40,092 nucleotides of DNA from an uncultured Eubacteriaceae bacterium (lineage in GTDB: Bacteria > Bacillota > Clostridia > Lachnospirales > CAG-274), in contig CANOGI010000001.1 in assembly GCA_947565475.1 (NCBI GenBank), forward strand, positions 1-40,092, given 5' to 3'. Below the pieces are notes generated by a model. The model saw only the letters and a program-made list of their open reading frames with translations. It did no database searches and was not told the origin of the DNA. Positions 23,801 through 40,092 of this stretch are shown in pieces (position 1 is the stretch's first letter; every line of letters starts with the position of its first letter). Made by a program: the position numbers and the translations under genes.

Positions 23801-24825
23801 TTGACATCGTGCTTAATCCTCTTGGCGTGCCGTCTCGTATGAATATAGGACAGGTGCTTGAGATACATTTAAGTCTCGCCGCTAAAGTACTTGACTGGAA
23901 AGTCGCCACACCTGTATTCGACGGCGCTAAGGAAATAGACATTATGGATACTCTTGAGCTCGCTAACGATTACGCCAATTTAGAGTGGGAGGACTTTTCA
24001 GAGAAATGGGAAAGTGTCCTTGACCCGGAAATTTTTGAGTATCTTGATAAAAATAAGGCCCACCGTGAGGAATGGAAAGGCGTTCCTATTAATAATACGG
24101 GTAAAATCAAACTTAGGGACGGACGTACGGGAGAGGAGTTTGACAACCCAACGACTGTAGGATTTATGCACTATTTGAAACTTCATCATCTTGTTGACGA
24201 CAAAATTCATGCCCGTTCCACAGGTCCTTATTCTTTAGTTACTCAGCAGCCTTTGGGCGGTAAGGCCCAGTTTGGCGGACAGCGTTTTGGAGAGATGGAG
24301 GTTTGGGCTCTTGAGGCTTATGGCGCTTCTTATACGCTTCAAGAAATTCTTACCGTTAAATCTGACGACATTGTTGGACGTGTGAAAACCTATGAGGCTA
24401 TCGTGAAAGGTGAGAATATTCCGGAGCCGGGTGTTCCGGAATCCTTTAAAGTTCTTTTAAAAGAACTTCAGGCGCTGGGGCTCGATGTTCGAGTGCTTAG
24501 AGAAGACGATACGGAGGTTGAAATCAAGGAGGACCTTGACGACGACGATATAGGCGTTATTGATGTGAATATTGAGGGCGTTGAGAAAGATGACTATTTA
24601 GAAAAGGAAGAGGAAGAAACCGACATTGTTGATACGGTTCTTAACAATCCTGAGCTTTTAGACGAACTTGAGATAGATGAGGACGATATAGAGATAGACG
24701 ATGATGATATTCTTATTGATGAGGATGAGAACGATATAGAGATAGACGATGAGCTTTTCAACGATTTAGATGATTTTGAGGATGAAAACGGTATTGATGA
24801 GATAATTAAAGATGACGAAGAATAG
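20872..24825 (+). CDS. rpoB: DNA-directed RNA polymerase subunit beta
   Basis: Unmistakable beta-subunit sequence (e.g. [74 protein letters not shown]). ATG 20872 with AAGGAG at 20856-20861. The 58 codons upstream in the ORF track are read-through of the R-A repeat. Confidence 0.98.
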
Positions 24826-24842
24826 GAAGGAGAAATTTTGTT

Positions 24843-27800
24843 ATGCATGCACAAAACGGCGAACAGGCTATAACTTTTGATTATATTAAAATTGGTTTGG
24901 CGTCTCCTGAGAAAATTCTTGATTGGTCATACGGTGAAGTTAAAAAACCCGAAACTATTAATTACAGAACTTTAAAGCCGGAGAGGGACGGTCTTTTCTG
25001 TGAGAGAATTTTCGGACCAAGCAAAGACTGGGAATGTCACTGTGGAAAATTTAAGAGAATAAGATATAAGGGCATTATATGTGACCGTTGCGGCGTTGAG
25101 GTTACAAAAAGCAAGGTAAGACGAGAAAGAATGGGGCACATAAAACTTGCCGCCCCTGTTTCTCATATATGGTATTTTAAAGGTATTCCGAGCCGTATGG
25201 GTATTATACTCGGTATGTCTCCGAGAGCTCTGGAAAAAGTGCTTTATTTCGCGTCATATGTTATTCTTGACCCGGGAAACAACACCTCCCTTGTATACAA
25301 AGATTTGCTTACCGAAAAGGAATACAGGGACGCCAGAGATAAATACGGCGATACTTTTAAAGTTGGAATGGGAGCGGAGGCTATTAAGATTCTTCTCCGT
25401 GACATAAATCTTGAGAAAGAATCCGTTGAGCTTAAAAAAGAACTTAAAAACAGTACGGGACAAAAAAGAGTGCGTATTATAAAAAAGCTTGAGGTCATTG
25501 AGTCTTTCAGGGTTTCAGGAAATAAGCCTGAATGGATGATTCTTGATGTGATACCTGTTATACCTCCTGATTTGCGTCCTATGGTTCAGTTAGACGGCGG
25601 AAGATTCGCCACTTCTGACCTTAACGACCTTTACAGGAGAGTCATTAACAGAAATAATAGGCTTCAAAGACTTCTTGACTTACACGCTCCTGACATAATT
25701 GTGAGAAATGAGAAAAGAATGCTTCAAGAGGCTGTTGACGCTCTTATTGACAACGGTAGGAGAGGCAGACCTGTCACAGGCCCCGGAAACAGAAGCCTTA
25801 AATCTCTTTCTGACCTTTTAAAAGGTAAACAGGGGCGTTTCCGTCAAAACCTCTTGGGAAAACGAGTTGATTATTCAGGACGTTCCGTTATTGTTGTCGG
25901 ACCTAATCTTAAAATTTATCAATGCGGTCTTCCTAAGGAGATGGCTATTGAGCTTTTTAAACCTTTTGTTATGAAAAAGCTTGTTGAGGACGGGCAGGCT
26001 CACAACATTAAGTCGGCGAAACGTATGGTTGAGAGACTTCAGACAGAAGTATGGGACGTTTTAGAAGATGTTATAAAAGAACATCCCGTTATGTTGAACC
26101 GAGCTCCGACTCTTCACAGGCTTGGTATTCAGGCTTTTGAGCCTGTATTGGTTGAGGGAAGGGCCTTAAAGCTTCATCCACTTGTTTGTACCGCTTATAA
26201 CGCCGATTTTGACGGCGACCAAATGGCCGTTCACGTTCCTCTATCTGTTGAGGCACAGGCGGAATGCAGATTTTTGCTTTTAGCGCCAAACAATCTTTTG
26301 AAACCTTCTGACGGGGAGCCTGTTACTGTTCCGTCTCAGGATATGGTATTGGGAATTTATTATCTTACTCTTGAGAAAGACGGGGAACCTGGAGAGGGAA
26401 AAGTTTTTAAAGATGAAAACGAGGCTCTGCTTGCTTATGACAATCATGTCATCAGTCTTCACGCCAAAATTAAGGTGAGAAGGACTCTTGAGATTGACGG
26501 TGTTTTACAGTCTCAGATTGTTGATACAACAGTGGGCAGGATTATTATAAATGAGATTATTCCTCAGGATATTGGTTTTGTGGACAGAAGTATTCCTGAA
26601 AACCGATTTAAGTATGAAATAGATTTTCTTACGGACAAAAAAGGTCTGGGGAAAATTATTAATAGATGTATTAACAAGCATACAGCCACGGAAACAGCTG
26701 TTGTTCTTGACAATATAAAAGGACTTGGCTTTAAGTTCTCTACAAGGGGAGCTTTGACAGTTTCCGTTTCCGATATGGAAATTCCAAAAGAAAAGGTCGA
26801 GTATCTCGCTGAGGCGGACAAAGTTGTTGACAAGATAACTAAGATGTACAGGCGAGGGCTTATGACAGACGAGGAAAGACACGCTAAAGTTATTAAAGCG
26901 TGGGAAGTGGCTGACGATAAAATAACAAACGCTCTGTTAGCGGGGCTTGGTAAATATAACGACATTTATATGATGGCGCATTCTGGCGCCCGTGGTTCCA
27001 ACAGACAGATTAAACAGCTTGCCGGAATGCGTGGGCTTATGGCGTCTCCGTCAGGAGAGACAATCGAGCTTCCTATTAAGGCGAACTTCAGAGAGGGTCT
27101 CTCAGTTCAGGAATACTTTATTTCCGCTCATGGGGCGAGAAAGGGTCTCTCTGATACAGCTCTTCGTACGGCGGACTCCGGTTATCTTACCCGTCGTCTT
27201 GTAGACGTTTCTCAGGAAATTATTATTCACGAATGGGACTGCGCCGAGGGCGAGGATGAGGTTCCAGGAATGAGAGTAAGCGCTTTTATGGACGGGCAAG
27301 AGGTTATAGAGCCTTTATCAGACCGTATCAGAGGAAGATATGCCGTGGAGGATATTTATCACCCTGAAACAGGAAAACTTCTGGCGAAAGCGGACAGCAT
27401 GATTTCCCCTGACCAAGCTGACGCTATTGAGGCATCTGGAATTAAGACAGTTCATATCAGAACAATCCTCTCATGCCGCGCGAGAAAAGGCGTATGCTCT
27501 AAGTGTTATGGCGCTAATATGGCTTCAGGAAGAATTGTAAGAATAGGGGAGTCGGTAGGTATTATCGCCGCTCAGTCTATCGGTGAGCCTGGAACACAGC
27601 TTACTATGCGTACTTTCCATACGGGCGGTGTTTCTGGAAACGACCTTACGCAAGGTCTTCCACGTGTAGAGGAGCTTTTTGAGGCGAGAAAGCCAAAGGG
27701 TCTTTCTATTATCTCTGAGACAGGCGGTAAAGTCACCGTCACAGACACCAAAAAGAAGAGAGAAGTTACCGTTATTAGTGAGAACGGCGAGGTTAAAGAG

Positions 27801-28388
27801 TATCTCATACCTTACGGTTCCCGTATTAAAGTGCTTAACGGAGATGTTATAGAGGCAGGCGACGAGCTTACGGAAGGAAGTGTAAACCCTCATGATATTT
27901 TAAGAATTAAAGGTATCAGAGGGGTTCAAGACTATATGATTCAAGAAGTTCAGCGTGTATACAGGCTTCAAGGTGTTGACATTAACGATAAGCATGTTGA
28001 GGTTATTGTAAGGCAGATGCTTAAACGCATTAAAGTTGAGGAAAACGGTGATACAAATTTCTTGCCGGGAAGTCTTATAGACTGGCTTGAGTTTGAGGCC
28101 GTGAACAAAGAAATGCTTAAAGAGGGGCTTGAACCCGCTAATGGTTCAAGGGTACTGTTGGGTATCACAAAAGCCGCTTTGGCTACGGAATCGTTCCTTT
28201 CGGCGGCTTCTTTCCAGGAAACAACGAGAGTTCTTACGGAAGCGGCCATTAAAGGCAAGGTTGACCCTCTTATCGGTCTTAAAGAAAATGTTATTATCGG
28301 TAAACTTATTCCCGCCGGTACGGGTATGAATACTTACAGAAAAATTGACCTTAAACTTATTGATAAGGAAAATGTAGCGGGAGAATAA
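24843..28388 (+). CDS. rpoC: DNA-directed RNA polymerase subunit beta'
   Basis: Zn-finger [23 protein letters not shown], catalytic [14 protein letters not shown], trigger-loop and bridge-helix regions. GGAAGGAG RBS upstream. Confidence 0.98.
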
Positions 28389-28422
28389 TTGATTTTATAA
28401 ATTTTATATAAATGACCTGCTT

Positions 28423-28570
28423 AACCGACAAGAGGAAGTCCCCCGCTTAAAAAGCTGGGGACTTCCTCTTGTATTAAGTAGGAGTGCAAGCTCCAAATTA
28501 ATATAAGGGCGAATGATTTCGTTGTTGGTTACGAGAATTTTTGTTATACAAAAATTCTCGTAGTTTTGAC
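28423..28570 (+). repeat. R-A family, canonical 148-nt copy
   Basis: It starts 35 nt after the rpoC stop. All four hairpins are intact, including a perfect hairpin 4, TACGAGAATTTTTG-TTATA-CAAAAATTCTCGTA. Tail TAGTTTTGAC. Confidence 0.85.
28431..28476 (+). terminator. rho-independent terminator for rpoC (hairpin 2 of R-A)
   Basis: AGAGGAAGTCCCC(C)GC-TTAAAAA-GC(T)GGGGACTTCCTCT forms a stem of about 15 bp, followed by the T-rich TGTATT. It also faces the convergent minus-strand gene ending at 28592. Confidence 0.65.
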
Positions 28571-28591
28571 TGAGGTGATTAGTATTAGCTA

Positions 28592-29317
28592 TTAATTTTT
28601 TAATTCTATTCCGTTTTTAGAGGCAAAATTTTTTAATTTTTCAATATATATTTTATATTGATTTTGTATTTCGGCGAGTTTATCGGTATCTGTTAAGTTT
28701 CCATAATTTTTTACTGTTCTCTCAAAGGCGTTAATTTGGTTTAATAAAGTTATAAATTCTTCAGCGGAAGATTTATTCAGAGATGAACGATTTTCAGTTA
28801 TCTGGTTTATTATTGATTTTAATTCGCTAGCAGTGTAAGCCTTTTTTCCTGTTGAGCGGATTATATCTTTTTGACTTGTTTCGTTTGTATTTATTTCCGC
28901 TGTGTATGTGTCAGGATTCCATTTAACCTCGGCGTTAAACGCCTGTGAAACCGCTCTTAAAGGTATTAATGTACGATTATTTATTATTTTTGGTTCTACA
29001 TCAAGAATTACTTTTTTTGAATTTACCGACATTTCTTTTGAACCGATTTTCATAATAACAGTTATGTTTTTTTTGCGACATATTATAGTTCTGTTTTTTT
29101 CATTCCACTCAACAGAGGCGCCGAGCTCTTCTAGTATAGCCCGAAAAGGTACGAGGGTTGTACCTTTTTCGATTATAGGTTTTTGGTCGAAGTGTAAAAA
29201 TTTGTTGTTTAATTTAATTTTTATATCGGGCGATGCTGTTATGGAGAAAGGTGAGAGGAAAGTCAAGCAAATCAATGTTATAAAGCCACGCTTAAATAAT
29301 TTTTTTATAGATGACAT
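28592..29317 (-). CDS. secreted stalk-domain protein with C-terminal helical module
   Basis: Signal peptide. Stalk motifs EKGTTLVPFRAILEELGASVEWNEKNRTI and INNRTLIPLRAVSQAFNAEVKWNPDTYTA. C-terminus YKIYIEKLKNFASKNGIELKN. Confidence 0.75.
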   Translation of the reverse strand: MSSIKKLFKRGFITLICLTFLSPFSITASPDIKIKLNNKFLHFDQKPIIEKGTTLVPFRAILEELGASVEWNEKNRTIICRKKNITVIMKIGSKEMSVNSKKVILDVEPKIINNRTLIPLRAVSQAFNAEVKWNPDTYTAEINTNETSQKDIIRSTGKKAYTASELKSIINQITENRSSLNKSSAEEFITLLNQINAFERTVKNYGNLTDTDKLAEIQNQYKIYIEKLKNFASKNGIELKN

Positions 29318-29379
29318 TTATCAAATCTCCTTTTTTATTTGGAATTTCCGTAATTACATAGTTTAGAAAAGAATGGCAT

Positions 29380-29742
29380 TTATGGCGTATCGTTTAAGCC
29401 CACGTCATAGTTGAGAGTAATGCTGTTTTCCTCAGCTATATTCTCAATTTTCTCAATATAAATATCATATTGTTCAGTAATTTTATTTATTTTTTCCTGA
29501 GAGTCAAACTCTTTGGGATTGGAATTTATATTTTTTACATATTCTTTTATTTCTTTGACGAGAGAAACATATTCTTCTTTTGAGTCTAAGGAAAGGCTGT
29601 CCGCCTGAGAACTGATTGAGTCAATGACGGATACAAGTGTAGCGGCGGTTTTTTCATTATCTAACATATTATTAGACTGGCAACCTGCCAACAGAGTAAT
29701 TGAAAGGGGGACTGTAATTAAGGCACGCGAAATTTTTCTCAT
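29380..29742 (-). CDS. small lipoprotein consisting of the helical module only
   Basis: Lipobox LLAGC. C-terminal YDIYIEKIENIAEENSITLNY matches the module ending of neighbouring paralogs. Confidence 0.7.
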   Translation of the reverse strand: MRKISRALITVPLSITLLAGCQSNNMLDNEKTAATLVSVIDSISSQADSLSLDSKEEYVSLVKEIKEYVKNINSNPKEFDSQEKINKITEQYDIYIEKIENIAEENSITLNYDVGLNDTP

Positions 29743-29998
29743 TTTTGAACAAGCTCCTTATATATATAAGCTAACGACGTATATTTTATGCCAAAAATTT
29801 ATTTGTTTAAATTTTAAGCTTGGGATTATGGAAAAAAGTATTAAACAATATTATATTTTTATTTTATCCACTAAAAAAGTGATAATACAAGCCTTTTATT
29901 TATAAATTAAAAAATAAATTTATAAACAAAATTTAAAAGCTTTATATTATCACCTTTTTATGTAATTTACGATTCTTAATAATTATTTATTAAGAAAA

Positions 29999-30331
29999 TT
30001 ATTTAATTTCGATATTGTTTTTCTTAGCGATGTCTTTTAATTTAGTGTCAAGTTCCTCGATTTTAGCGAGAGCCTCGTCTAAATCAGCGTCATCTCCTGC
30101 TGAAGCGATAGACATAAGTTCAGTAGCCTCAGTCTGAAGAGCTTTCATATCTTCCTGAAGTTTAGCCTGAGCGTCAGCGTCTAATTTTGTAGCTTCCTGA
30201 GCTATAGTTGTAGCGGAAGTCATAAATTTCTGAGCCGCAGCCTGTACGTCTTCCTCAGTAGCTCCGCCACAGCCTGTAAATAAAGAAAGTGATAAAATAG
30301 AAACACCTAAAATTGATAAAAACTTTTTCAT
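29999..30331 (-). CDS. small Ala/Glu/Lys-rich lipoprotein with the helical module
   Basis: MKKFLSILGVSILSLSLFTGC lipobox. C-terminus KLKDIAKKNNIEIK. AAGGAG sits 9 nt upstream of ATG 30331; the ATG at 30349 in the ORF track would overlap this RBS. Confidence 0.7.
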   Translation of the reverse strand: MKKFLSILGVSILSLSLFTGCGGATEEDVQAAAQKFMTSATTIAQEATKLDADAQAKLQEDMKALQTEATELMSIASAGDDADLDEALAKIEELDTKLKDIAKKNNIEIK

Positions 30332-30394
30332 TGTAATAATCTCCTTCAATAAAAAATTAAAATGTTAATAAACTGTAAATTTTATTATAAAAAA

Positions 30395-30423
30395 ATTATA
30401 CCACACAAAATTTAATTTGTAAA
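30395..30423 (-). promoter_or_regulatory. candidate sigma-A promoter for the 29999-30331 lipoprotein gene
   Basis: The minus strand reads TTTACA (30423-30418), 17-bp spacer, TGG-TATAAT (-10 at 30400-30395, extended -10). About 60 nt upstream of the start codon. Confidence 0.55.
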
Positions 30424-30594
30424 TAAAAATTTTAATTTAATTTGGAATAATTTTTTATACTTTAGTTTATAATAATATGTATATAAAAAAGTGAAACACA
30501 AATAATTATAAACTATACATTTCATTATAACATATAAAATATTATTTGTAAATACGTTTTTTAATTATTTACATGAGCTTTTTTTTATGGGAAT

Positions 30595-31560
30595 TTATAA
30601 ACTATTTAAGTTTGAGAGAGTCTGGCTCATATTCTGTACGGCGTCAAGAAGTTCTTTTTCAGAGGTTATTGGTTTTACCGTGATATGATTCTTTTTAGCG
30701 AAAGAATTAAGTTTAACGGCATATTCCCCTAACTTAGACGGATTTGTCATATTATTTGTTATATCAACGGTAAATTCTTGACAAATTGTTTTAAATTCTG
30801 TTTGAGAAGATTTGTCCAAAGATGTTATGTTATTTATTATCGCTATAAAAGGAGCGTAAAAATCGTAATACGCCTGCATTAACTCAGAGTCTTCCGCCAT
30901 ATCTGAGGTATTTTCCATATCATCAACGGAATCCATTAAATCATTTAAAGATGATATAGGTTTTACTGTTATATTATTAGCTTTCGCCACGGCGTTAAGT
31001 TTAACAGCGTATTCATTCAATTTATCCGTGTTTGCCAAGATTTTGCCGAAATCGGATAAAATTTCTTTGTAAAGACTTATGACCTCTGGCATAGAGGCTT
31101 CTTTTATAACATCGGCGTTATCTGACACGGCTATACACGGCGCGAAAAAGTCAAGATATGCTCGTTCCCATTTTTGATAGTCGAAATTTTCGTAGTCAAA
31201 GTTTTTTATAGTGTCGGTTAAGAGAGCGTCAATATCAAGATTTTCAATATCTTCTAATAAACCATCCAAATCTTTTTTCAGAGCGGAGCTATTAGTAGAA
31301 GAATTTGAGTTTGAAGTGGGATTTGAAACTGAGGAAGAATCTAAACCCGAAAGTTTGGAAGCGGGATTTGAAACTGAGGAAGAATCTAAACCCGAAAGTT
31401 TGGAAGCGTTATAAGAATTAGCGCTTTCGGAGTCTTTTACGGAAGATTCAAAAGAAGACTCCGTGGTTGTTTGTTCAGTAGTCTCATCTGAGTCCCCACA
31501 GCCTGAAAGCAAAGCGAGGGATAAAAGAGAAACTCCCAAAATCGATAAAAATTTTTTCAT
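30595..31560 (-). CDS. lipoprotein with Ser-rich linker and two tandem helical modules
   Basis: MKKFLSILGVSLLSLALLSGC lipobox, nearly the same signal peptide as the 29999 gene. Two modules end LNAVAKANNITVKP and LNSFAKKNHITVKP. GGAGG RBS. Confidence 0.75.
   Translation of the reverse strand: MKKFLSILGVSLLSLALLSGCGDSDETTEQTTTESSFESSVKDSESANSYNASKLSGLDSSSVSNPASKLSGLDSSSVSNPTSNSNSSTNSSALKKDLDGLLEDIENLDIDALLTDTIKNFDYENFDYQKWERAYLDFFAPCIAVSDNADVIKEASMPEVISLYKEILSDFGKILANTDKLNEYAVKLNAVAKANNITVKPISSLNDLMDSVDDMENTSDMAEDSELMQAYYDFYAPFIAIINNITSLDKSSQTEFKTICQEFTVDITNNMTNPSKLGEYAVKLNSFAKKNHITVKPITSEKELLDAVQNMSQTLSNLNSL
31318..31407. repeat. perfect 45-bp tandem duplication inside the lipoprotein gene
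   Basis: GGGATTTGAAACTGAGGAAGAATCTAAACCCGAAAGTTTGGAAGC occurs at 31318-31362 and again at 31363-31407. In-frame, it encodes ASKLSGLDSSSVSNP twice on the minus strand. Confidence 0.9.
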
Positions 31561-31716
31561 TGTTAAAACCTCCTTAATTTTATTTTAAAACTGTTTGAGA
31601 TTTTTCAAACAATTTTTTTATGTACTGAAGTGCCGAGAGGAAAATTGTAATCAAATTTTAAGAGCACGTAAAGCGCGCGAACGGGAAGCTAAAAGAACAG
31701 CTTTCCGCATAATTGA

Positions 31717-32811
31717 TTATTTTTGTTTTTCAAATGGTATTTTTACCTCTATTATTCCGGAAGAATAGGGCGCTATCTCATATTGATTAAAGAAAAACAC
31801 AAGCCCGTCTTTGGAAACGTAGAAATTATCAGGCGATAAATCCTCAACGAGTTTTTCCGAGTCATCGTAAAAATTATCAGGATTTTCCTTTATCTCTTTT
31901 TTGAAAAGTTCTTTTACATCTTTTAAAATCGCCTCGGAATCTTTTCCGCAAAGTTCTTTAGCTACCTCGTCTAAAGTTACGGCGCCTGTCTCTATGTTAT
32001 ATGTTTTGGCTGATTTAAGCGTAGAGGGATGAGCTCCTCCCGTATATGACGTTTCAGTGCTTATTATTGAGAGATAGTTATCAAATTCGTCGGCGTCATA
32101 AGTGAGCGTAAACTCATAGGGGTGGAAGTTTTCTGTATTTTCGATGAATATGTCTTTTGCCTCTTTTTTTAAATTGTCAAGGGACATATCCATATCATCT
32201 GCTTTTTTATTTAAAAATTTCTCAGCCTGAGAGTTTCTTTTCTCCTCGAAAAGTGAATACGCTTTTTCACTTAATTTTTCTTTTAATAACTCTGAGTTTG
32301 TATATATTTTTGCCGTTATGAGGACGGTATCGCCGTCTGTTATATTACATGTTTCTGTGGCGATAGGATTCACGGTGTTAATTATTATTGTTTTAGTATT
32401 GGCATCGTAATTTATGACCGCACCTAACGCCTCGTTTATGACTTGGAGGGGAACAAGAGCTTTTCCATCTGTTATTTTCGCGGGAAACTCAATATGAATC
32501 TTTTTGCCGTTTACGTCGATTTCAGAAGCCCCGATTGTCACGCTTATGGTTTTATCATCCTTTGTACATATTATTGTTTTTGTGCTTTCATCCCATAAGA
32601 TTGACGCTCTTATTTCTTCCATAAAATTTCTGAAAGGTATAAAGGGGATTCCGTCTTCTATCGTAAAGGGCTGTTCAAGGTTGATTTCTTTATTATCAAG
32701 CGTTATGGTGAATGTTTTATTTTCTGTTATGGCAAGTATCGGAGATACTGAGCAATACTGCAAAACAGCGCTTAATAATATCGACGTTATTATTTTTAAT
32801 TTTCTTTTCAT
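31717..32811 (-). CDS. secreted stalk-domain protein fused to a DUF4163/DUF3298 (RsiV/PdaC-like) domain
   Basis: Stalk motifs EDGIPFIPFRNFMEEIRASILWDESTKTI and TDGKALVPLQVINEALGAVINYDANTKTI. The C-terminal half has SYTGGAHP and FNQYEIAPYSSGIIEVKIPF, typical of DUF3298. Confidence 0.75.
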   Translation of the reverse strand: MKRKLKIITSILLSAVLQYCSVSPILAITENKTFTITLDNKEINLEQPFTIEDGIPFIPFRNFMEEIRASILWDESTKTIICTKDDKTISVTIGASEIDVNGKKIHIEFPAKITDGKALVPLQVINEALGAVINYDANTKTIIINTVNPIATETCNITDGDTVLITAKIYTNSELLKEKLSEKAYSLFEEKRNSQAEKFLNKKADDMDMSLDNLKKEAKDIFIENTENFHPYEFTLTYDADEFDNYLSIISTETSYTGGAHPSTLKSAKTYNIETGAVTLDEVAKELCGKDSEAILKDVKELFKKEIKENPDNFYDDSEKLVEDLSPDNFYVSKDGLVFFFNQYEIAPYSSGIIEVKIPFEKQK

Positions 32812-32846
32812 TTTTAATTCTCCTTGTATGATAAGTTATTTATTTT

Positions 32847-32995
32847 AACCGACAGAGGAAGTCCCCCGCTTTTTAGGCGGGGGTACTTCTTCTTGTATTC
32901 AGGAAGAGTGCAAGCTCACTTTGAATACAAAGGCGAATATTTTTGCCGTCGGTTACGAGAATTTTTGTTATACAAAAATTCGAGTAGTATTGACT
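32847..32995 (+). repeat. R-A family, canonical 149-nt copy
   Basis: AACCGACAGAGGAAGTCCCCCGC-TTTTTA-GGCGGGGGTACTTC...CTTGTATTCAGG...TTGAATACAAAGGCGAATATTTTTGCCGTCGGTTACGAGAATTTTTGTTATACAAAAATTCGAGTAGTATTGAC. It lies between two minus-strand genes. Confidence 0.85.
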
Positions 32996-33108
32996 TGTAT
33001 GGAGTAAGTATAAGCTGATAGTAAATATAAATGTTATAATAATCTGTTGAAAGAATTTCGTGAAACAAAAATATAAATAGTTTTTGTTTAGATAAAAGCG
33101 GATTAATG

Positions 33109-34617
33109 TTAATCTTCTATTTTAATTTTATTTTTTTCCGCTAAAACTTTAAGTTCTTCAATATATTTTTTTAACTTCTTTTCCGCTGTGTCAATTTTTT
33201 CCTGTGTGTTCAGACGCTGACTGTTTGATAAAAGACCTTTTACATATTCTAATATCTCACTCATAAATTGGGTATGTTCTGAGGATTCGGGCAGACCTTT
33301 TTTAATTCGCATATAAATATTTGAAAGTTCTCTCTCCGCCGATATAAAACCGATTATGTCAAGGTCTTGCTGTTTTTCTTTAGCGGCGGATGTTCTCTTT
33401 AGATCCTCTATATAAATTTTCATTTCATTTGTAATTTCGTCAATTTCATTTTGAGACGAAAAACAGTTAAACATACTGTTTATAAATTTTAAGGAAATTT
33501 CATATGGTACAGCCATAGTCTCAGGGTTTTCCGAGTGGTCTTTGAGAAGTTCTTTTAATGTTTTGGTATATTCCGAATAGTCAAATTTAGTCATATTGTG
33601 TTCGGACATAAAGGTTTTAATTTTTTCAATAATTTTATTGAGTTTTATTTCTATTTCCTTAGTTTTCCCAATATCTTCGCTGTCATAGGAGGTTATATAA
33701 CCGTCCGCCAAAAATGATAATATATCGAGATAAATTTCTTTAGCCTCTTGATATGTTTCTGTATTTAAAGAGCCGGAAAGTTGAGAAACAAGCGGAATTA
33801 ACTCAATAACAGTTTCATTTTCAATAAATGAAAGAAAGCTTGTTATAAAGCATATACTGTTTTCAGCGCTTGTCTCAGAGTAAATAAGTCTGTCGTTTCT
33901 TTTAAACAAATCTGTTATTTTTTCGGCGTATTCTTTTTTTATATTCTGCTTTTTCTCAATTATTTGAGGGTCTCCGTTTTTAGAATTTTCAGTCAAATAA
34001 ACATAGTCCTTTGAGGTATAAAAATTAAATATAATTTCTTTCGCCTCTTCAATGGAGTTATCGTCAAAATCTTTTAGATTGGCTATTAACATAAAAGTAA
34101 TGTTTGACATCGTATTATCAGAAATATAACGATTTGTGTTAAAATCATATATGTCATCTGATGTGTTATGATTTATGAACTCGATAAGATTTTCAACATC
34201 TTTAATGTAGTGAACGACGGAGGAGTTAATAATTTTTGACACTGTAAAGTCGGATATGTAAGCCGTGGAGTTTATTACTTTCGAGGGAGACACGGATTCT
34301 TCGTAAATTTGATTGTTTACCGTAAAAGAGTCGGAGCCTATTGTAATGGAAAAATTTATTTTACCATTTGAGCCGTGTATTGTTTTTTTTGAGCTGTCGT
34401 AAATTATTTTATAGCCTATATTCTCAAAAAAAGTCCGAGCGGGCAAATAAGTCTCAAGACCGGTGTCGTCAAAAAATACAGGTTTATCAAGTTTAACGAT
34501 ATTTCCGTTTACCATTATTATAGTATTAGGATCAAAGTCCCCGAAAGTATAAACGGGAGCGGTAAAAGATAACGCGGTTACCGCTGTTAAAAATAAAGAA
34601 GCGAGCCTTTTTTTCAT
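33109..34617 (-). CDS. secreted protein with divergent stalk-like N-terminal domain and long helical region ending in the module
   Basis: Signal peptide. Divergent stalk pattern MVNGNIVKLDKPVFFDDTGLETYLPARTFFENIGYKIIYDSSKKTI. C-terminus YIEELKVLAEKNKIKIED. Weak RBS. Confidence 0.65.
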   Translation of the reverse strand: MKKRLASLFLTAVTALSFTAPVYTFGDFDPNTIIMVNGNIVKLDKPVFFDDTGLETYLPARTFFENIGYKIIYDSSKKTIHGSNGKINFSITIGSDSFTVNNQIYEESVSPSKVINSTAYISDFTVSKIINSSVVHYIKDVENLIEFINHNTSDDIYDFNTNRYISDNTMSNITFMLIANLKDFDDNSIEEAKEIIFNFYTSKDYVYLTENSKNGDPQIIEKKQNIKKEYAEKITDLFKRNDRLIYSETSAENSICFITSFLSFIENETVIELIPLVSQLSGSLNTETYQEAKEIYLDILSFLADGYITSYDSEDIGKTKEIEIKLNKIIEKIKTFMSEHNMTKFDYSEYTKTLKELLKDHSENPETMAVPYEISLKFINSMFNCFSSQNEIDEITNEMKIYIEDLKRTSAAKEKQQDLDIIGFISAERELSNIYMRIKKGLPESSEHTQFMSEILEYVKGLLSNSQRLNTQEKIDTAEKKLKKYIEELKVLAEKNKIKIED

Positions 34618-34658
34618 TTTAAATTCTCTCTTTCTGATTATAAGATTACATTATTAGA

Positions 34659-34872
34659 ACGTATCTGAAAACTGAAATACGCGCGAGAAATTATAAAAAA
34701 GCAAAATGAATTTGAAGCGTATCATTTTATTCTTTGGATATTCAGCCTTTTTAACAATATAGAAATTCGCGAAATTTTTAATATAAAATAACATTTGACA
34801 TTATTTGGATTTATTAAAGTTTATTTGTCTATTATTTTATTGTTAGCTATATACATAGTTTTCAGATACATA
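34659..34872. repeat. R-H family 214-bp element bounded by inverted repeats
   Basis: Terminal inverted repeats ACGTATCTGAAAACT (34659-34673) / AGTTTTCAGATACAT (34858-34872). The interior shares the AAATACGCG.GAGAAATTATAAAAAAG core with 1204-1240. Confidence 0.65.
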
Positions 34873-34893
34873 TAGGTTTAATATTTAAAATTA

Positions 34894-36351
34894 TTATATA
34901 ACTTTCAGTTGTAACTTTGCCGCGAGAAATTTCCACTCATCGTGAAGCTGAGTTATATTTTTTACGCAGTTAGCTATTTGAGCGTCCGTCATTTTCGTTA
35001 TTGTATCGAAAGCGGCTGAAAATTCAGGGTTGTCAGAATTGAGTTTAAACAGTTTTGAGTATGTGTCGAGAGTTTTTATATAAAGAGAGTTGTACTTTGC
35101 CTGATAATCAGAATACTTTTGCTTTAAGGTTTTTCCGTTCTCATCGGCGTCAAGGTCGGACGCTTTTTTTATAAAATTTTTTAAATATACTGTGAGGTCG
35201 AGATCCGCCTTTATAAGAGGTTTTATATCTGTTTTGCTCGATTTCTTAGTGGTTTTTCCACTTATTCCGAGGTTAATGTAAATTGTTTTCACATCCTCAA
35301 GTATTTCTTTTACCTCCTCTTCAGCGTCGAGAATATCATCTTTGCCGGGGATTAATTTATCCGGGTCGTCGGAGAGATACTCATTTTTGAATTTCTCAAT
35401 TCTCTTTATGTGTTTGTTATAAGGTTTTTCAGCAAAAGCGTATTTTTCTTTAAAAATATAGGGCTTATCGGCGCCGTCATCTATAGAGCGAACTGTATAG
35501 TTCTCAATATATTTTTCGTAAAGGTCTATGTCCGACATATAATCGGCGTAATCGGGAATACTACAGCCCACTTTATCGGCGAAGTTTTTAATCTCGTCTA
35601 TTAAAACATCTACGGAATCTTCAGAGAGATTTAATATTTTTTTCGCTTTTTTCATCTCGCATGAGTTTATATTGCTGTAATCTATATTTATTTTTCCAAA
35701 AGGCGAGTCTTTGCCGTTGAAAATGTCAGAAAAATACTCAAACTCTTTGGCGTAGGACTCGTATTCGGGTTTTAAAATTTTAGCCAGGGTCATATATGAG
35801 CCTTTATCAAGACATATTCCGTCGTTTAAAGCGTAGATATACAGTGAGAGTTTTGTGAGTTTTGACGATAAGACGGCGTCCTCGGAATTTACAGGAGAGT
35901 ATATGAACACTGTCTGAAGCTCACTATCCCAAAACACTTCTGAATTTAAGGCTTTTGACAGCGCTCTTAAAGGGATATATGTCGTACCGTCTATAAGAAC
36001 GGGTGGAACGTCTAAAAACACGTCGGCGTCCTCAGAAAACCGCATTATATTGCTGTTTATTACAAAAGTGAGGTATATATCGTCTTTTGAGCAAACTATT
36101 GTTTTTGTTTTTGGATTCCAATCTAAGGCGATATTCATCGCGTCAGCTATTTCTCTTAAAGGCACAAGAGTAACTCCGTCTTTAATTACAGGGTCTTTTG
36201 ATAAGTTTAAAATATTGTCGTCAAGTTCCACGATAATTTTATTGCTTGTCACCGAGTAAGAAACGGCGAAAGTTTTAAACGTTTCTGTCGATGAGAAAAT
36301 TAAAGCGGATAAAATGATAAAAGATAAAAATTTTATAAAATATTTTCTCAT
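34894..36351 (-). CDS. secreted stalk-domain protein with long helical C-terminal region
   Basis: Signal peptide. Stalk motifs KDGVTLVPLREIADAMNIALDWNPKTKTI and IDGTTYIPLRALSKALNSEVFWDSELQTV. Degenerate module ending FLAAKLQLKVI. AAGGTGA RBS. Confidence 0.72.
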   Translation of the reverse strand: MRKYFIKFLSFIILSALIFSSTETFKTFAVSYSVTSNKIIVELDDNILNLSKDPVIKDGVTLVPLREIADAMNIALDWNPKTKTIVCSKDDIYLTFVINSNIMRFSEDADVFLDVPPVLIDGTTYIPLRALSKALNSEVFWDSELQTVFIYSPVNSEDAVLSSKLTKLSLYIYALNDGICLDKGSYMTLAKILKPEYESYAKEFEYFSDIFNGKDSPFGKINIDYSNINSCEMKKAKKILNLSEDSVDVLIDEIKNFADKVGCSIPDYADYMSDIDLYEKYIENYTVRSIDDGADKPYIFKEKYAFAEKPYNKHIKRIEKFKNEYLSDDPDKLIPGKDDILDAEEEVKEILEDVKTIYINLGISGKTTKKSSKTDIKPLIKADLDLTVYLKNFIKKASDLDADENGKTLKQKYSDYQAKYNSLYIKTLDTYSKLFKLNSDNPEFSAAFDTITKMTDAQIANCVKNITQLHDEWKFLAAKLQLKVI

Positions 36352-36407
36352 AAAATCACCTTAAATATTCTTAATGATGCTTTAAGCGTTTTTAAGTTTT
36401 CAGAAGT

Positions 36408-37841
36408 TTAATACGCTTTTCCCCATATAACCATTTTCTCAGCGGGTTTTTGACAGCATACGCACGTATCTCCTATATGTTCCTGCTCAAACGGTATACA
36501 TCTTGAGGTCGCTCCTGTTTCTTCCTTTATTTTATTTTCACATTCCTCGTTTCCGCACCACATAGCTTTTATAAAGCCTTGATTTGTCTCAAGAACTTTT
36601 TTAAACTCTTCCATATTTTTGGCTTCGGACGTTTTTGCCTCTCTGTGGGCTTTAGCTTTTTCCAAAAGACTTGACTGAATGTTTTCAAGAAGGGAGATAA
36701 CTTCTTTTTCAATTTCAGATAGCTTAACGGTTGTTTTTTCGCCTGTGTCGCGTCTCGCCAAAACAGCCTGACCGTTTTCTATATCACGAGGCCCGAGCTC
36801 TATTCTCACAGGAACACCTTTCATCTCATACTCGCTGAATTTCCAGCCTGGTGATTTATCAGAATCGTCAAGGCGAACCCTGCATACTTTTGAGAGGGTC
36901 TTTAAAACTTCCTCAGCTTTTTCCAAGACACCTTCTTTTTTCTGCATTACCGGTACTATTATTACTTGGGTAGGAGCGACTTTAGGAGGGAGCACAAGCC
37001 CGTTATTATCGCTGTGAACCATAATAAGACCTCCGATAAGACGAGTCGATACGCCCCATGACGTTTGATGAACGTATTGAAGCTTATTGTTTTTATCAGT
37101 ATATTTAATATCGAAAGCTTTGGCGAATCCGTCTCCAAAGTTATGGGACGTTCCTGACTGAAGAGCTTTTCCGTCGTGCATAAGGCTCTCGATTGTGTAT
37201 GTGGATTTAGCTCCGGCAAATTTTTCTTTATCTGTTTTTTGGCCTTTTATTACAGGAATCGCGAGAACTTTCTCACAGAAGTCGGCGTATTCGTTAAGCT
37301 GGGCGATTGTCTCCTCTTTTGCTTCTTCCTCTGTGGCGTGAGCGGTATGCCCTTCCTGCCACAAAAACTCAAGGCTTCTTAAAAAAGGTCTTGTGGTTTT
37401 TTCCCAGCGTACAACAGAACACCACTGGTTATAAAGTTTAGGGAGGTCACGGTATGACTGAACTATATTGGAATAGTGCTCGCAGAAAAGAGTTTCTGAA
37501 GTCGGTCTTACGCAGAGCCTGTCGGTTAGTTTTTCCTCACCCCCGTGAGTAACCCAAGCTACCTCAGGAGCGAAACCCTCAACATGGTCTTTTTCTTTTT
37601 GAAGAAGACTTTCGGGGATAAACATAGGCATATAAACGTTTTCGTGTCCTGAAGCTTTAAATCTCTCGTCAAGTTGCTTCTGAATAAGTTCCCATATAGC
37701 GTATCCGTAAGGGCGGATAACCATACAGCCCCTTACGCAGGAATAATCAATTAAATCGGCTTTTTTTACTATATCTGTATACCATTTAGCGAAATCGTCT
37801 TCCATAGATGTTATCGCGGTAACCATTTTTTCTTGTGACAT
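36408..37841 (-). CDS. proS: proline--tRNA ligase (archaeal/eukaryote-like class II type, ~477 aa)
   Basis: Class II aaRS motifs ([12 protein letters not shown]; [15 protein letters not shown]; GTSHNFG), an anticodon-binding domain, and a C-terminal zinc-type domain (WCGNEECE...CVCC). AAAGGAG RBS. Confidence 0.95.
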
Positions 37842-37875
37842 AAATATAAACTCCTTTTATAAAAAATTGGTTGGA

Positions 37876-38239
37876 GCGTATCTGAAAACTCTCCCTAACT
37901 GTTAAAAGTATATAAAACTTTATTTTTTTAAGATTATTTTTATTTTCTCAAAACTAAAATATACAAAAAATTATAAAAATAAACGAGATTTGACTGGCGT
38001 TTATTTTTTATTATTTCTCATACTAATCTTATAAGAGCTGTTAAGTAACAATATCTTTGCTAATTGTTATCATCTAAGTTATTTAGATGATATATTTAAA
38101 AAGTGGATATAATATATTAGGACGGTATAAAAACAAGGCGAATACTTTCACCGTCGGTTACAAGAATTTTTGCTATACAAAAATTCGAGTAGTTTTGATA
38201 AGAGATTAGTATTATGTATATTTTAGTTTTCAGGTACGC
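37876..38239. repeat. R-H family copy (364 bp) containing an R-A 3' fragment
   Basis: Terminal inverted repeats GCGTATCTGAAAACT (37876-37890) / AGTTTTCAGGTACGC (38225-38239). The interior is inverted relative to 34659-34872. It starts 35 nt upstream of the proS start codon. Confidence 0.6.
38124..38198 (+). repeat. R-A family, 3' half only
   Basis: ...ACAAGGCGAATACTTTCACCGTCGGTTACAAGAATTTTTGCTATACAAAAATTCGAGTAGTTTTGA. Hairpins 1-3 are absent. Confidence 0.7.
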
Positions 38240-38299
38240 TGTAGTTATATTTTAACACAGTCGAGAATTATATTCAACAATTTAAAAATAAAAAATGCT

Positions 38300-38583
38300 T
38301 GTGGAAAAGATGAAAATATTCAAAAGTAATGAATAAAGTTATCAACAAGAGGAATATAATTAAAACAAGCTCTAAAGGCTTATCAACAAAGTTATCAACT
38401 TTTCCACAGTGAATAATTTATGAATATTGATTTTTTTTGTGAGAAACCCTGTTTATAAGTAATTTTATTGGAAAAAACACAATATATTGTGGGTCTTATA
38501 ACAGAGTTTGCGGATATATAGTTAATTATACGGAAAAATGACTGTGGAAAAGGTATATGTTATCAACAAAAAAATGTGGATAA
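38300..38583. promoter_or_regulatory. DnaA-box cluster (8 boxes in 284 bp)
   Basis: TGTGGAAAA 38300-38308; TTATCAACA 38339-38347; TTATCAACA 38380-38388; TTATCAACT 38392-38400; TTTTCCACA 38400-38408; TGTGGAAAA 38543-38551; TTATCAACA 38560-38568; TGTGGATAA 38575-38583 (perfect). Consensus is TTATCCACA / TGTGGATAA. Confidence 0.7.
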
Positions 38584-38598
38584 CTTATTTACTTATGC

Positions 38599-38903
38599 TA
38601 TAGTCAAACTATTTGAAAATAAATAGAATGTGGAGATATTAAAATTATTTTCGCGAGGCAGTGGAATAAGAGTATAGTTTAATGCCTATGCCGACTGACG
38701 TTAATGTGGTAAAAAGGATTTTAAAGTGAACAAATTTTAAAGGAAGCGAAAAGGTTATTTTACTTGCACGGCCCGCAAATTGCTGTATAATTAGCTTACC
38801 GACTAACAGCACTTGCGTGCCCGTAAAATATTTTTTCGCACTTTTTAAGCTTGCTCGCTTTAAAACACCGAACTTGTTTATTTTTCAAGCGGTTTGATTA
38901 TAT
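38599..38903 (+). repeat. R-B family element with nested R-C (305 bp)
   Basis: Left end TATAGTCAAACTATTTGAAAATAAATAG, right end CTTGTTTATTTTTCAAGCGGTTTGATTATA (inverted repeats). The core matches 12520-12600. R-C occupies 38726-38858. Confidence 0.75.
38726..38858 (-). repeat. R-C family copy, inverted relative to 12741-12872
   Basis: GTGAACAAATTTTAAAGGAAGCGAAAAGGTTATTTTACTTGCACGGCCCGCAAATTGCTG...GCACTTGCGTGCCCGTAAAATATTTTTTCGCACTTTTTAAGCTTGCTCGC aligns end to end with the reverse complement of 12741-12872. Confidence 0.75.
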
Positions 38904-38915
38904 ATAACATTAAGA

Positions 38916-38968
38916 TAAAAAACACCCGCGAACAAAATTTTTATAAAATATGTTCGCGGGTGTTTTTT
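38916..38968 (-). terminator. bidirectional rho-independent terminator downstream of ftsH
   Basis: AAAAAACACCCGCGAACA (38916-38933), 17-nt loop, TGTTCGCGGGTGTTTTTT (38951-38968). GC-rich 12-bp stem with an A-tract and T-tract on either side. Confidence 0.8.
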
Positions 38969-39016
38969 ATTTATATGAAGCGTAAAAAGTAGTCAAATCC
39001 TTTTGTGAAGAGAGGA

Positions 39017-40092
39017 TTATATCTCAATATCAATGTTTTTTGTTTTCTCATCTGTGTTTTCTTCAGTTTTGGAAGATGTATCAAATAGTAAATTCTCGGG
39101 TTCTTCCACAACACTGTCAGGGTCCAAAATTTTTCTGAATTCCGCTCCTGTGATTTTTTCTTTCTCAATAAGGAGAGCTGCCGTTTTATGAAGAACGTCG
39201 ATATTTTCGTTTAAGATTTTAATGGCTTCGTCATAGGCTGTTTTTATTATTGTGTCAATTTCATCATCGATTATTGAGGCTATTCCCTCGCCGTAATTTC
39301 TCGCGTGTCCAATGTCTTTTCCAAGGAAAACCTCATTATTCTCGTCTCCAAACTGTATGGGCCCTAATTTCTCACTCATACCGTAACGCATTACCATTTT
39401 TCTGGCGAGGTCTGAAGCTCTTTGAATGTCGTTTGACGCTCCTGTGGTGATATCTTTTATTATAATTTCTTCCGCCGCTCTTCCTCCGAAAAGAGAAATA
39501 ATTTCTTGAGTCATCTGAAGTTTTGAGCGATAAGCTTTATCGTCGGAGGGCAGGGGCATAGTATATCCGCCTGCCATACCTGTTGGAATAATGGAAATTA
39601 TATGAACAGGGTCAAGCTCTGACAAAACCTCAAACAAGATAGCGTGACCCGCCTCGTGGTAAGCTGTGATTTTCTTTTCTTTCTCGCTTATGACACGGCT
39701 TTTCTTTTCCGTACCTATTCCAACTTTTACAAAAGCTTTTCTGAGGTCAGCCATATCAAGCTCTTTTTTATCAAATCTCGCCGCCAGAAGAGCCGCTTCA
39801 TTTAAAAGATTTTCAAGGTCAGCTCCCGTAAAGCCAGGAGTTGTCTGAGCTATAACTTTCATATCAACTTCTTTGCTTATTTTTTTGCCTTTAGCGTGTA
39901 CTTTTAATATTTCCTCACGTCCCTTTACGTCAGGAGTGCCGACAACGACACGTCTGTCGAAGCGTCCTGGTCTTAAAAGAGCGGGATCCAAAATATCAGG
40001 GCGATTTGTAGCAGCGAGAACTATCACGCCCTCGTTCACGCCGAAACCGTCCATTTCAACCAATAATTGGTTTAATGTTTGCTCTCTTTCAT
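39017..40092 (-). CDS. ftsH: ATP-dependent zinc metalloprotease FtsH (3' part; N-terminal TM and most of the AAA region outside window)
   Basis: The frame is open to the window edge ([17 protein letters not shown]...). Second region of homology PGRFDRRV. Zn-binding HEAGHAI. C-terminal acidic tail. The ORF-track start at 40063 is an internal Leu codon. Confidence 0.95.

What the first reader, a model, noticed from the sequence alone, without database searches (positions are those of the whole stretch)
38300..38583. Dense DnaA-box cluster in a gene-free island between proS and ftsH, with no dnaA nearby
Eight 9-mers matching the DnaA-box consensus TTATCCACA lie within 284 bp, in both orientations. 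One is perfect (TGTGGATAA, 38575-38583), six have one mismatch and one has two; coordinates are in the feature list.

Two sub-clusters flank a very AT-rich ~130-bp spacer (38409-38542). The island (38240-38598) is the only non-repeat DNA in a 1.17-kb ORF-free gap. It is bracketed exactly by two MITE-like elements (R-H ends at 38239, R-B starts at 38599). Elsewhere in the 40 kb I found only one isolated box-like 9-mer (29864-29872).

Known precedents for such clusters are:
- oriC;
- the non-origin DnaA-box clusters of Bacillus subtilis and datA of E. coli, which titrate DnaA;
- DnaA-controlled promoters (dnaA, sda).

Choosing among these is inference. A primary origin looks unlikely, because rpoBC (+, to the left) and ftsH (-, to the right) would both be transcribed head-on to forks leaving this site. 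A titration or regulatory cluster, or a relic or secondary origin, fits better.
Basis: partly seen in the sequence, partly recalled or inferred. Interest (0 to 1): 0.8.

Follow-up and report, generated by a model that had tools for sequence, protein, structure and literature searches.

The report
Conserved non-origin DnaA-box cluster with NrdR site
A 300-bp gene-free stretch upstream of proS in an uncultured Clostridia lineage is a conserved landing pad for the replication initiator DnaA that is not the chromosome origin, and at its centre sits a binding site for NrdR, the dNTP-sensing repressor of ribonucleotide reductase genes, with no such gene nearby.

Summary
The DnaA-box cluster is real. 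There are 7 boxes with at most one mismatch in 284 bp, against 0.17±0.41 in local shuffles and 1 box in the other 5.8 kb of intergenic DNA.

It is conserved at the same place, upstream of proS, in seven other species (ProS 83-97% identical). The boxes are kept while the DNA between them drifts.

It is not the primary origin:
- Third-codon-position GC skew shows forks arriving from the rpoBC/proS side in all ten genomes, and none shows an origin-type switch.
- No dnaA lies within 10 kb, and there is no DnaA-trio run.
- The "AT-rich spacer" is no more AT-rich than its surroundings.

That spacer holds a perfect NrdR-box consensus (38477-38491). A second, degenerate box follows after a 16-bp linker of constant length and free sequence, which is the signature of an NrdR operator. 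No ribonucleotide reductase gene lies within 10 kb in any genome.

Best reading: a DnaA-box cluster of the Bacillus subtilis DBC / E. coli datA kind, acting as a DnaA sink and local regulator, with NrdR as a co-bound factor. DnaA and NrdR binding, and any effect on initiation, are untested. The flanking MITE-like repeats are lineage-specific and incidental.

The parts
38240..38598 (.). The whole conserved island (unique DNA between two repeat-derived flanks)
   Evidence: It has no other copy in the window. Homologues lie upstream of proS in L209, L214, L218, L212, L217, L009 and L213 (alignments A2 and A3).
38575..38583 (-). DnaA box TTATCCACA (perfect); outer member of an inverted pair
   Evidence: 8 of 9 columns are invariant in six species; the only change is C<->A at position 6.
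38560..38568 (+). DnaA box TTATCAACA; inner member of the inverted pair (TTATCmACA-N6-TGTkGATAA)
   Evidence: 8 of 9 columns invariant.
38543..38551 (-). DnaA box TTTTCCACA, present only in the closest relatives
   Evidence: Mean identity 0.65, conserved only in the window and L209.
38509..38524 (.). Candidate NrdR box 2 (TGCGGATATATAGTTA): 5 of the 6 key positions, with C at position 3 instead of 4
   Evidence: It lies 16 bp from box 1. The half CTATATA is invariant in eight species. Moving C or G by one position in one box is tolerated in vitro (PMC13584703).
38493..38508 (.). 16-bp linker between the two NrdR boxes
   Evidence: 0 of 16 columns are invariant, but the length is 16 in every species. 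NrdR linkers are conserved in length, not in sequence (PMC13584703).
38477..38492 (.). NrdR box 1 (ACACAATATATTGTGG): perfect match to the consensus acaCwAtATaTwGtg
   Evidence: It is the only match in the window, with 0 matches in 100 shuffles even when one mismatch is allowed. C4, A6, A8, T9, T11 and G13 are kept in all species; changes fall only at positions 1-3, 7, 10 and 16. The consensus is quoted from PMC4009431.
38450..38458 (-). DnaA-box-like TTATAAACA (one mismatch to TTATNCACA)
   Evidence: 9 of 9 columns invariant in six species; one change, in L218, among the eight of A3. Found by the relaxed scan.
38380..38408 (+). Head-to-tail array of three DnaA boxes: TTATCAACA (38380), TTATCAACT (38392), TTTTCCACA (38400)
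   Evidence: This is the most conserved block of the island (GTGGAwAwGTTGATAACTTTGTTGATAAGCC; 9/9, 8/9 and 6/9 columns invariant).
38339..38347 (+). DnaA box TTATCAACA
   Evidence: 8 of 9 columns invariant; toggles between TTATCAACA and TTATCCACA among species.
38300..38308 (-). DnaA box TTTTCCACA, 22 bp upstream of the proS promoter -35 element
   Evidence: Present in 5 of 6 species.
38249..38277 (-). Sigma-A-type promoter TTGAAT-17-TGtTAAAAT, probably the proS promoter
   Evidence: Conserved at the same alignment column in the window, L209 and L212, where proS follows directly.
38135..38224 (.). Dispersed repeat (MITE-like) lying between the island and proS, in the presumed proS leader
   Evidence: Copies at 32930, 28508, 20732, 12698 and 18439. 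Not found next to the island in L212, L009 or L213.
38599..38902 (.). Dispersed repeats (MITE-like) on the ftsH side
   Evidence: Copies at 12481-12587, 12740-12876, 18556-18611 and 866-950.
38908..38977 (.). 33-nt inverted repeat (arms 85% complementary, 4-nt loop) just downstream of the ftsH stop codon, read as a bidirectional terminator; not part of the element
   Evidence: Inverted repeat I1. Only sub-threshold hairpin-type Rfam matches. The terminator scan did not report it.

Best explanation
The island is a conserved DnaA-box cluster outside oriC, of the kind known as DBCs in Bacillus subtilis and datA/DARS in E. coli.

Proposed mechanism:
- DnaA is proposed to occupy up to about ten boxes. 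They are arranged as an inverted pair (38560-38583), a head-to-tail triple array (38380-38408) and single boxes.
- This holds a pool of DnaA away from oriC. Through the box 22 bp upstream of the -35 element, it may also modulate the adjacent proS promoter.
- Between the two box groups lies an NrdR operator: one perfect box and one degenerate box 16 bp apart. The dATP/ATP-sensing repressor NrdR, which bends DNA sharply, probably binds within the DnaA complex.

Shown: the sites, their statistical excess, their conservation pattern, the non-origin position and the absence of RNR genes.

Inferred: DnaA and NrdR occupancy, titration, and any cross-talk between the two proteins.
For: - Box excess.
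- A homologous element is present in seven further species, always upstream of proS, while the other flank varies: ftsH, amidase, FMN_bind protein, IMPDH, aroK-like gene, or mobile-looking genes.
- Purifying selection on the sites: boxes have mean identity 0.89 (75 of 112 columns invariant) against 0.74 for the rest. Substitutions inside boxes toggle between the two DnaA-box variants TTATCCACA and TTATCAACA.
- Not an origin: see the rival explanations.
- NrdR operator: perfect consensus, unique in 40 kb. The key positions are invariant and the variation falls at the positions the literature reports as non-critical. The linker is free in sequence but fixed at 16 bp (PMC13584703; PMC4009431).
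- Not an RNA: no Rfam match and no covariation.
- No conserved promoter overlaps the NrdR boxes.
- Precedents: B. subtilis DBCs restrain initiation and regulate neighbouring genes (PMC3245932). datA and DARS2 need a DNA-bending protein bound among the DnaA boxes (PMC5742627).
Against: - No binding data exist for either protein.
- The genome is a MAG contig, so the distance to oriC is unknown. B. subtilis DBCs are mostly oriC-proximal.
- NrdR box 2 lacks one of the two critical bases (C4/G13) at its canonical position in every species; five of the eight have that base displaced by one position and three (L214, L212, L009) lack it altogether. NrdR normally needs two boxes.
- The cluster is restricted to a narrow clade. 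It is absent at 81% ProS identity (L215) and degenerate, without an NrdR box, at 82% (L216).
- Conservation next to proS could reflect a purely transcriptional role.
Confidence: 0.6

Rival explanations
1. The island is only a transcriptional control region. DnaA (and NrdR) regulate the proS promoter directly downstream, or an unannotated transcript, as DnaA does at dnaA, sda, ywlC and yydA in B. subtilis and as DnaA plus NrdR do at E. coli nrdAB. There is no role in initiation control.
For: - A good promoter (TTGAAT-17-TGtTAAAAT, 38277->38249) starts 22 bp from the last box. It is conserved where proS follows directly.
- The island keeps one orientation relative to proS in all species.
- E. 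coli nrdAB combines DnaA activation with NrdR repression (PMC4009431).
- A single NrdR box acts at a non-RNR gene, topA (PMC4409342).
Against: - In L009 and L213 a 2.3-kb chemoreceptor gene in the opposite orientation separates the island from proS, yet all the sites are kept.
- The NrdR operator lies about 200 bp upstream of the promoter, and no conserved -35/-10 pair overlaps it.
- Seven to ten boxes is far more than typical promoter control needs.
- There is no biological link between proS and NrdR.
Confidence: 0.2
2. It is a relic, secondary or domesticated mobile-element origin: a DnaA-dependent ori that once fired, or still fires occasionally.
For: - Two box groups flank a 134-bp AT-rich stretch.
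- Synteny breaks on one side of the island in almost every species.
- In L213 the flank carries mobile-looking genes (Tubulin_2-like) with the opposite skew.
- Phage-like contigs L108 and L146 carry similar TTATCAACA arrays with CCACAATATATTGTGG-type palindromes.
Against: - There is no DnaA-trio run, and the spacer is not more AT-rich than its surroundings.
- The spacer is occupied by conserved duplex-binding sites.
- No similarity to any plasmid or phage record.
- No rep, integrase or partition genes nearby in the window or the proS-anchored relatives annotated.
- Similarity to L108 and L146 does not extend beyond the 19-mer used to find them.
- Sites conserved under purifying selection are not what a relic looks like.
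Confidence: 0.08
3. It is the primary chromosomal origin (oriC) of a lineage in which oriC has separated from dnaA.
For: There is a dense DnaA-box cluster in a gene-free gap, and no dnaA nearby would be needed if oriC is dnaA-distal, as in E. coli (PMC3245932).
Against: - Plus-strand GC3 skew does not change sign across the island in the window, L209 (9 kb beyond), L212, L214, L216 and L009.
- On the proS side the sign is the one expected for forks moving towards the island in all ten genomes, over 38 kb in the window.
- The three loci where the sign changes (L213, L217, L218) change in the terminus or rearrangement direction, not the origin direction.
- No DnaA-trio or DUE.
- No dnaA nearby, and no dnaN among the called genes of the proS-anchored loci.
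Confidence: 0.03

Closest known systems
[quoted passage not shown]
   Same: It is an intergenic cluster of many near-consensus DnaA boxes in a Firmicute, outside oriC and next to a promoter. The expected dual role is a DnaA sink plus local regulator (PMC3245932).
   Different: The neighbouring genes differ and there is no sequence homology. It carries an embedded NrdR operator, which is not described for any DBC. Its position relative to oriC is unknown, and DnaA binding is untested.
E. coli datA and DARS2
   Same: These are non-coding DnaA-box clusters whose activity depends on a DNA-bending protein bound among the boxes. datA has same-direction boxes; DARS has an oppositely oriented box pair. 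The island has both arrangements, with a bending-protein site between them (PMC5742627; NrdR bends DNA, PMC13584703).
   Different: The accessory factor would be NrdR, not IHF or Fis. Firmicutes lack IHF, Hda and SeqA. No hydrolysis or nucleotide-exchange activity can be inferred. There is no homology.
E. coli nrdAB promoter region (DnaA boxes plus NrdR boxes)
   Same: It is the only well-known place where DnaA sites and a tandem NrdR operator sit together (PMC4009431).
   Different: Here no RNR gene lies within 10 kb in any of ten genomes, no promoter overlaps the NrdR boxes, and there are about ten DnaA boxes.
Firmicute oriC (dnaA-dnaN region with DnaA boxes, DnaA-trios and DUE)
   Same: The box sequence types and the density.
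   Different: No skew switch, no DnaA-trio or DUE, and no dnaA or dnaN.

Membership tests
Chromosomal replication origin (oriC) | Cluster of DnaA boxes | tested here: met
   7 boxes with at most one mismatch in 284 bp.
Chromosomal replication origin (oriC) | Strand-composition switch: plus-strand GC skew goes from negative to positive across the site | tested here: not met
   GC3 skew has the same sign on both sides in six genomes. The proS side has the anti-origin sign in all ten.
Chromosomal replication origin (oriC) | DNA-unwinding element with DnaA-trios next to a box | tested here: not met
   No window of six triplets has 4 or more [C/T]TA on either strand. The B. subtilis incC sequence, recalled from memory, scores 5/6 as a control. 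The spacer's AT content equals that of its surroundings.
Chromosomal replication origin (oriC) | Adjacent to dnaA/dnaN, as usual in Firmicutes | tested here: not met
   tblastn with DnaA finds nothing in the window or in the proS-anchored loci fetched by then (L001-L088); the same probe finds dnaA in seven other loci. The gene tables of the later loci list no DnaA family.
Chromosomal replication origin (oriC) | Initiation activity (marker-frequency peak, autonomous replication) | not testable with these tools
   Needs experiments or read-depth data from growing cells.
Non-oriC DnaA-box cluster (B. subtilis DBC type) | Several near-consensus boxes clustered in intergenic DNA outside oriC | tested here: met
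Non-oriC DnaA-box cluster (B. subtilis DBC type) | Boxes maintained by selection | tested here: met
   Eight species; box columns 0.89 against 0.74 identity; substitutions stay within DnaA-box variants.
Non-oriC DnaA-box cluster (B. subtilis DBC type) | Stable DnaA occupancy in vivo, and earlier initiation when deleted | not testable with these tools
   Needs ChIP, EMSA and genetics.
Non-oriC DnaA-box cluster (B. subtilis DBC type) | oriC-proximal location | not testable with these tools
   The window is an entire 40,092-bp MAG contig.
NrdR operator | 16-bp box with C4, A6, A8, T9, T11 and G13 | tested here: met
   38477-38492. It is a perfect consensus match, unique in the window, and the key positions are invariant in eight species.
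NrdR operator | Second box 15-16 bp away, with a linker conserved in length only | tested here: inconclusive
   The linker is exactly 16 bp in all species with 0 of 16 columns invariant. Box 2 has 5 of 6 key positions, and its critical C/G is displaced or lost. A shift of one position in one box is tolerated in vitro (PMC13584703).
NrdR operator | Lies in the promoter of a ribonucleotide reductase operon | tested here: not met
   No RNR family appears among the called genes within +-10 kb in the eight relatives whose genes were listed, nor among the L009 flanking genes or the window ORFs scanned. No conserved promoter overlaps the boxes.
NrdR operator | The genome encodes NrdR | not testable with these tools
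   Only 40 kb of this genome is available. NrdR occurs in 77% of bacterial genomes (PMC13584703).
E. coli datA / DARS | IHF (and Fis) sites; DnaA-ATP hydrolysis or ADP release | not testable with these tools
   These are biochemical activities. Firmicutes lack IHF (established knowledge).

The most novel reading that the evidence does not exclude
The island is an NrdR-gated DnaA reservoir. NrdR binds DNA only when loaded with dATP plus ATP, and it bends DNA sharply. It sits between the head-to-tail DnaA array and the inverted box pair. In the way IHF acts at datA or DARS2, it would switch how much DnaA the cluster holds or releases, or in which nucleotide state. Initiation potential would then be coupled directly to dNTP supply, a link so far known only indirectly: nrdR loss rescues over-initiating B. 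subtilis (PMC9825946).
Probability: 0.12. Interest if true: 0.8.

Novelty: new variant of a known kind. Interest (0 to 1): 0.5.

Why it matters
Non-origin DnaA-box clusters are established regulators of initiation only in E. coli and B. subtilis. Nothing comparable has been described in Clostridia.

This one is small, sharply delimited and phylogenetically footprinted base by base, so it is directly testable by EMSA, ChIP or deletion in a cultivable relative.

The NrdR operator lies inside it, far from any ribonucleotide reductase gene. That suggests a physical meeting point between the initiator and the dNTP sensor. If it is functional, it would give a mechanism for matching initiation to precursor supply in bacteria that lack IHF, Hda and SeqA. 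If NrdR does not bind, the element is still a clean new example of a DBC.

Tried and rejected
- Metagenome scan with the conserved 19-mer TTGATAACTTTGTTGATAA. It returned 120 unrelated loci and none homologous to the island.
- Non-coding RNA. No Rfam match in the island. The RNAalifold covariation term is positive, and the only helices are the protein-site palindromes.
- Small conserved ORF. Indels are not multiples of three, and L213 has a 32-nt insertion. The two small ORFs in the gap have no family hits.
- Promoter overlapping the NrdR boxes. No -35/-10 pair is conserved in more than three species.
- DnaA-trio or DUE. None found.
- Mobile-element origin. No plasmid or phage similarity. The MITE flanks are lineage-specific.
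- Terminus or dif. L213, L217 and L218 show a plus-to-minus skew change at or near the variable flank, so I scanned for a dif-like site. None was found. The B. subtilis dif sequence used as the query was recalled from memory.
- Locating dnaA/oriC of this clade.

Full report
**Observation.** The window is a whole 40,092-bp contig of an uncultured Clostridia MAG. Class-I proS lies at 36408-37841(-), the 3' part of ftsH at 39017-40063(-), and rpoBC at 20698-28388(+). There are many Cu_amine_oxidN1/SLH wall proteins.

TTATCCACA with at most one mismatch occurs 20 times in the window, against 8.6±2.75 in shuffles. Seven of the 20 fall in 38300-38583, and a two-mismatch box sits at 38392.

Dinucleotide shuffles of the island itself give 0.17±0.41 boxes, with a maximum of 3 in 5000 shuffles. 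The other 5.76 kb of intergenic DNA holds a single box. The cluster is therefore real and not a by-product of AT-richness.

There are 13 others, 12 of them inside genes.

The flanks 38135-38224 and 38599-38902 are dispersed repeats that recur elsewhere in the window. The island itself is unique.

**Conservation.** ProS homologues led to loci from eight further species of one clade, with ProS 82-97% identical. Seven carry a homologue of the island, always upstream of proS and in the same orientation (alignments).

| Locus | ProS identity | Arrangement |
|---|---|---|
| L209 | 97% | ftsH, island, proS |
| L214 | 83% | ftsH, island, proS |
| L218 | 88% | ftsH, aroK-like, island, proS |
| L212 | 88% | FMN_bind protein, island, proS |
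| L217 | 88% | IMPDH, island, proS |
| L009 | 86% | amidase, island, MCP(-), proS |
| L213 | 85% | mobile-looking genes, island, MCP(-), proS |

L216 (82%) has a diverged cluster, and L215 (81%) has none.

In the six-species alignment, the DnaA and NrdR boxes average 0.89 identity, with 75 of 112 columns invariant. The rest of the core averages 0.74. Substitutions inside boxes toggle between TTATCCACA and TTATCAACA, both of which are DnaA-box variants. That is the pattern expected from selection for DnaA binding.

The MITE-like repeats do not flank the island in L212, L009 or L213, so the bracketing is incidental.

**Not the origin.**
- Per-gene third-codon-position GC skew, projected on one strand, has the same sign on both sides of the island in the window, L209 (9 kb beyond it), L212, L214, L216 and L009.
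- On the proS side the sign is the one expected for forks travelling rpoB->rpoC->proS->island in all ten genomes, over 38 kb in the window.
- An origin requires the opposite sign there. L213, L217 and L218 show a change at or near the variable flank, but in the terminus or rearrangement direction.
- No dif-like site is present.
- No dnaA is found in the window or in any proS-anchored locus, while the same probe finds dnaA in seven unrelated loci.
- No DnaA-trio run exists, and the spacer is 74.6% AT against 75.3% for the island as a whole.

**What the spacer contains.** Positions 38477-38491 read ACACAATATATTGTG. This matches every position of the NrdR-box consensus acaCwAtATaTwGtg (PMC4009431). 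It is the only match in the window, and 100 shuffles gave none even with one mismatch allowed.

The six positions reported as highly conserved in NrdR boxes are C4, A6, A8, T9, T11 and G13 (PMC13584703). They are invariant in all eight species. The variation falls at positions 1-3, 7, 10 and 16; an example is ACCCAACATCTTGTGT in L212. Positions 7 and 10 are reported to be unconstrained.

Exactly 16 bp away lies a second, degenerate box (38509-38524) with 5 of 6 key positions. The linker has 0 of 16 invariant columns but the same length everywhere. This is what the literature describes for NrdR operators: two boxes with a 15-16-bp linker conserved in length only.

About 0.5% of window positions reach 5 of 6 key positions by chance.

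Box 2 lacks the critical C/G at its canonical place. It is shifted by one position in five of the eight species (window, L209, L217, L213, L218) and lost in the other three (L214, L212, L009). I therefore treat the operator as a strong candidate, not a proven one.

The spacer also holds TTATAAACA, invariant in seven of the eight species (one change in L218), and a TTyTCACAA motif. Both are DnaA-box-like.

**What it is not.**
- No Rfam family matches the island, and the alignment shows no covariation.
- No conserved σA promoter overlaps the NrdR boxes.
- No RNR gene lies within 10 kb in any genome (gene tables; L009 flanks; window ORFs).
- There is no similarity to plasmids or phages.

A good promoter, TTGAAT-17-TGtTAAAAT (38277->38249, minus strand), lies 22 bp beyond the last box. 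It is conserved where proS follows directly. It is probably the proS promoter, with a repeat element inserted into the leader in this species.

**Interpretation.** The best-supported reading is a conserved non-oriC DnaA-box cluster of the B. subtilis DBC kind. Those clusters restrain initiation and also regulate neighbouring genes (PMC3245932).

The architecture is a same-direction triple array plus an inverted pair, with a site for a DNA-bending protein between them. It recalls datA and DARS2, where IHF bound among the boxes is essential (PMC5742627). Here the candidate partner is NrdR.

E. coli nrdAB is the only familiar place where DnaA and NrdR sites coexist. A single NrdR box acts at a non-RNR gene, topA, in Pseudomonas. 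Loss of nrdR rescues over-initiating B. subtilis.

All functional steps are inferred: DnaA occupancy, titration, NrdR binding and any cross-talk.

A purely transcriptional role is the main rival. It is weakened by L009 and L213, where an opposed chemoreceptor gene separates the island from proS without eroding any site.

**Verdict.** This is a new variant of a known kind, of moderate interest.

Noticed in passing
L036:2752-2996, L029:758-1117, L053:3123-3467: Three Lachnospiraceae/Clostridium loci carry 6-7 DnaA boxes (at most one mismatch) inside the coding sequence of an RluA-type pseudouridine synthase gene (PseudoU_synth_2), 1.4-7 kb upstream of proS. This looks like an intragenic DnaA-box cluster that recurs across species.
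   Followed up: partly
L088:7236-7345 (Youngiibacter multivorans): A canonical tandem NrdR operator (CCACAATATGTTGTGG, 16 bp, ACACAATATATAGGGA) is overlapped by three DnaA boxes. It is followed by a TTGACA/TATAAT promoter containing a LexA-type GAACATATGTTC box and a small ORF. It lies 2.7 kb upstream of proS with no RNR gene seen in the sequence read. This is a second, independent DnaA/NrdR hybrid site.
   Followed up: partly
L146:590-930 and L108:1720-2045: These metagenome contigs have an HNH-endonuclease ORF. L108 also has unannotated ORFs that look phage-like. Both carry dense TTATCAACA-type DnaA-box arrays together with near-perfect NrdR-type palindromes (CCACAATATATTGTGG, ATACAATATATTGTGG, CCACAATATATAGTAT). 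L146 ends in a 27-nt tandem repeat.
   Followed up: partly
window 28592-40063; L209:1-19287: By GC3 skew, proS, ftsH and a block of about ten wall-protein genes sit on the lagging strand, head-on to replication. The arrangement is long-standing across the clade. That is unusual for essential genes in a Firmicute.
   Followed up: partly
L213:738-7000; L217:1857-5240; L218:1503-6481: The side of the island away from proS is a synteny breakpoint in nearly every species. In these three loci its genes have the opposite GC3 skew. This may reflect recent inversion or insertion (L213 has Tubulin_2-like, mobile-looking genes), or forks converging there. No dif-like site was found.
   Followed up: partly
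window 825-950, 12481-12939, 18426-18611, 20732-20803, 28508-28599, 32930-32993, 38135-38224, 38599-38902: At least two families of short dispersed repeats (MITE-like) populate the intergenic regions. Short-read contigs of the same species break about 350 bp upstream of proS (L003-L008), probably at these repeats.
   Followed up: partly
window 17324-28592: rpoB-rpoC is not embedded in the usual rplJL ... rpsL-rpsG-fusA cluster. It is preceded by proC and an SLH/GH18 gene on the opposite strand, and followed by a convergent Cu_amine_oxidN1 gene.
   Followed up: no
window 15623-15631: A second perfect TTATCCACA lies inside the Cu_amine_oxidN1 gene 14961-15722, with a one-mismatch box 81 bp away (15542). 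It is too sparse to call a cluster.
   Followed up: no
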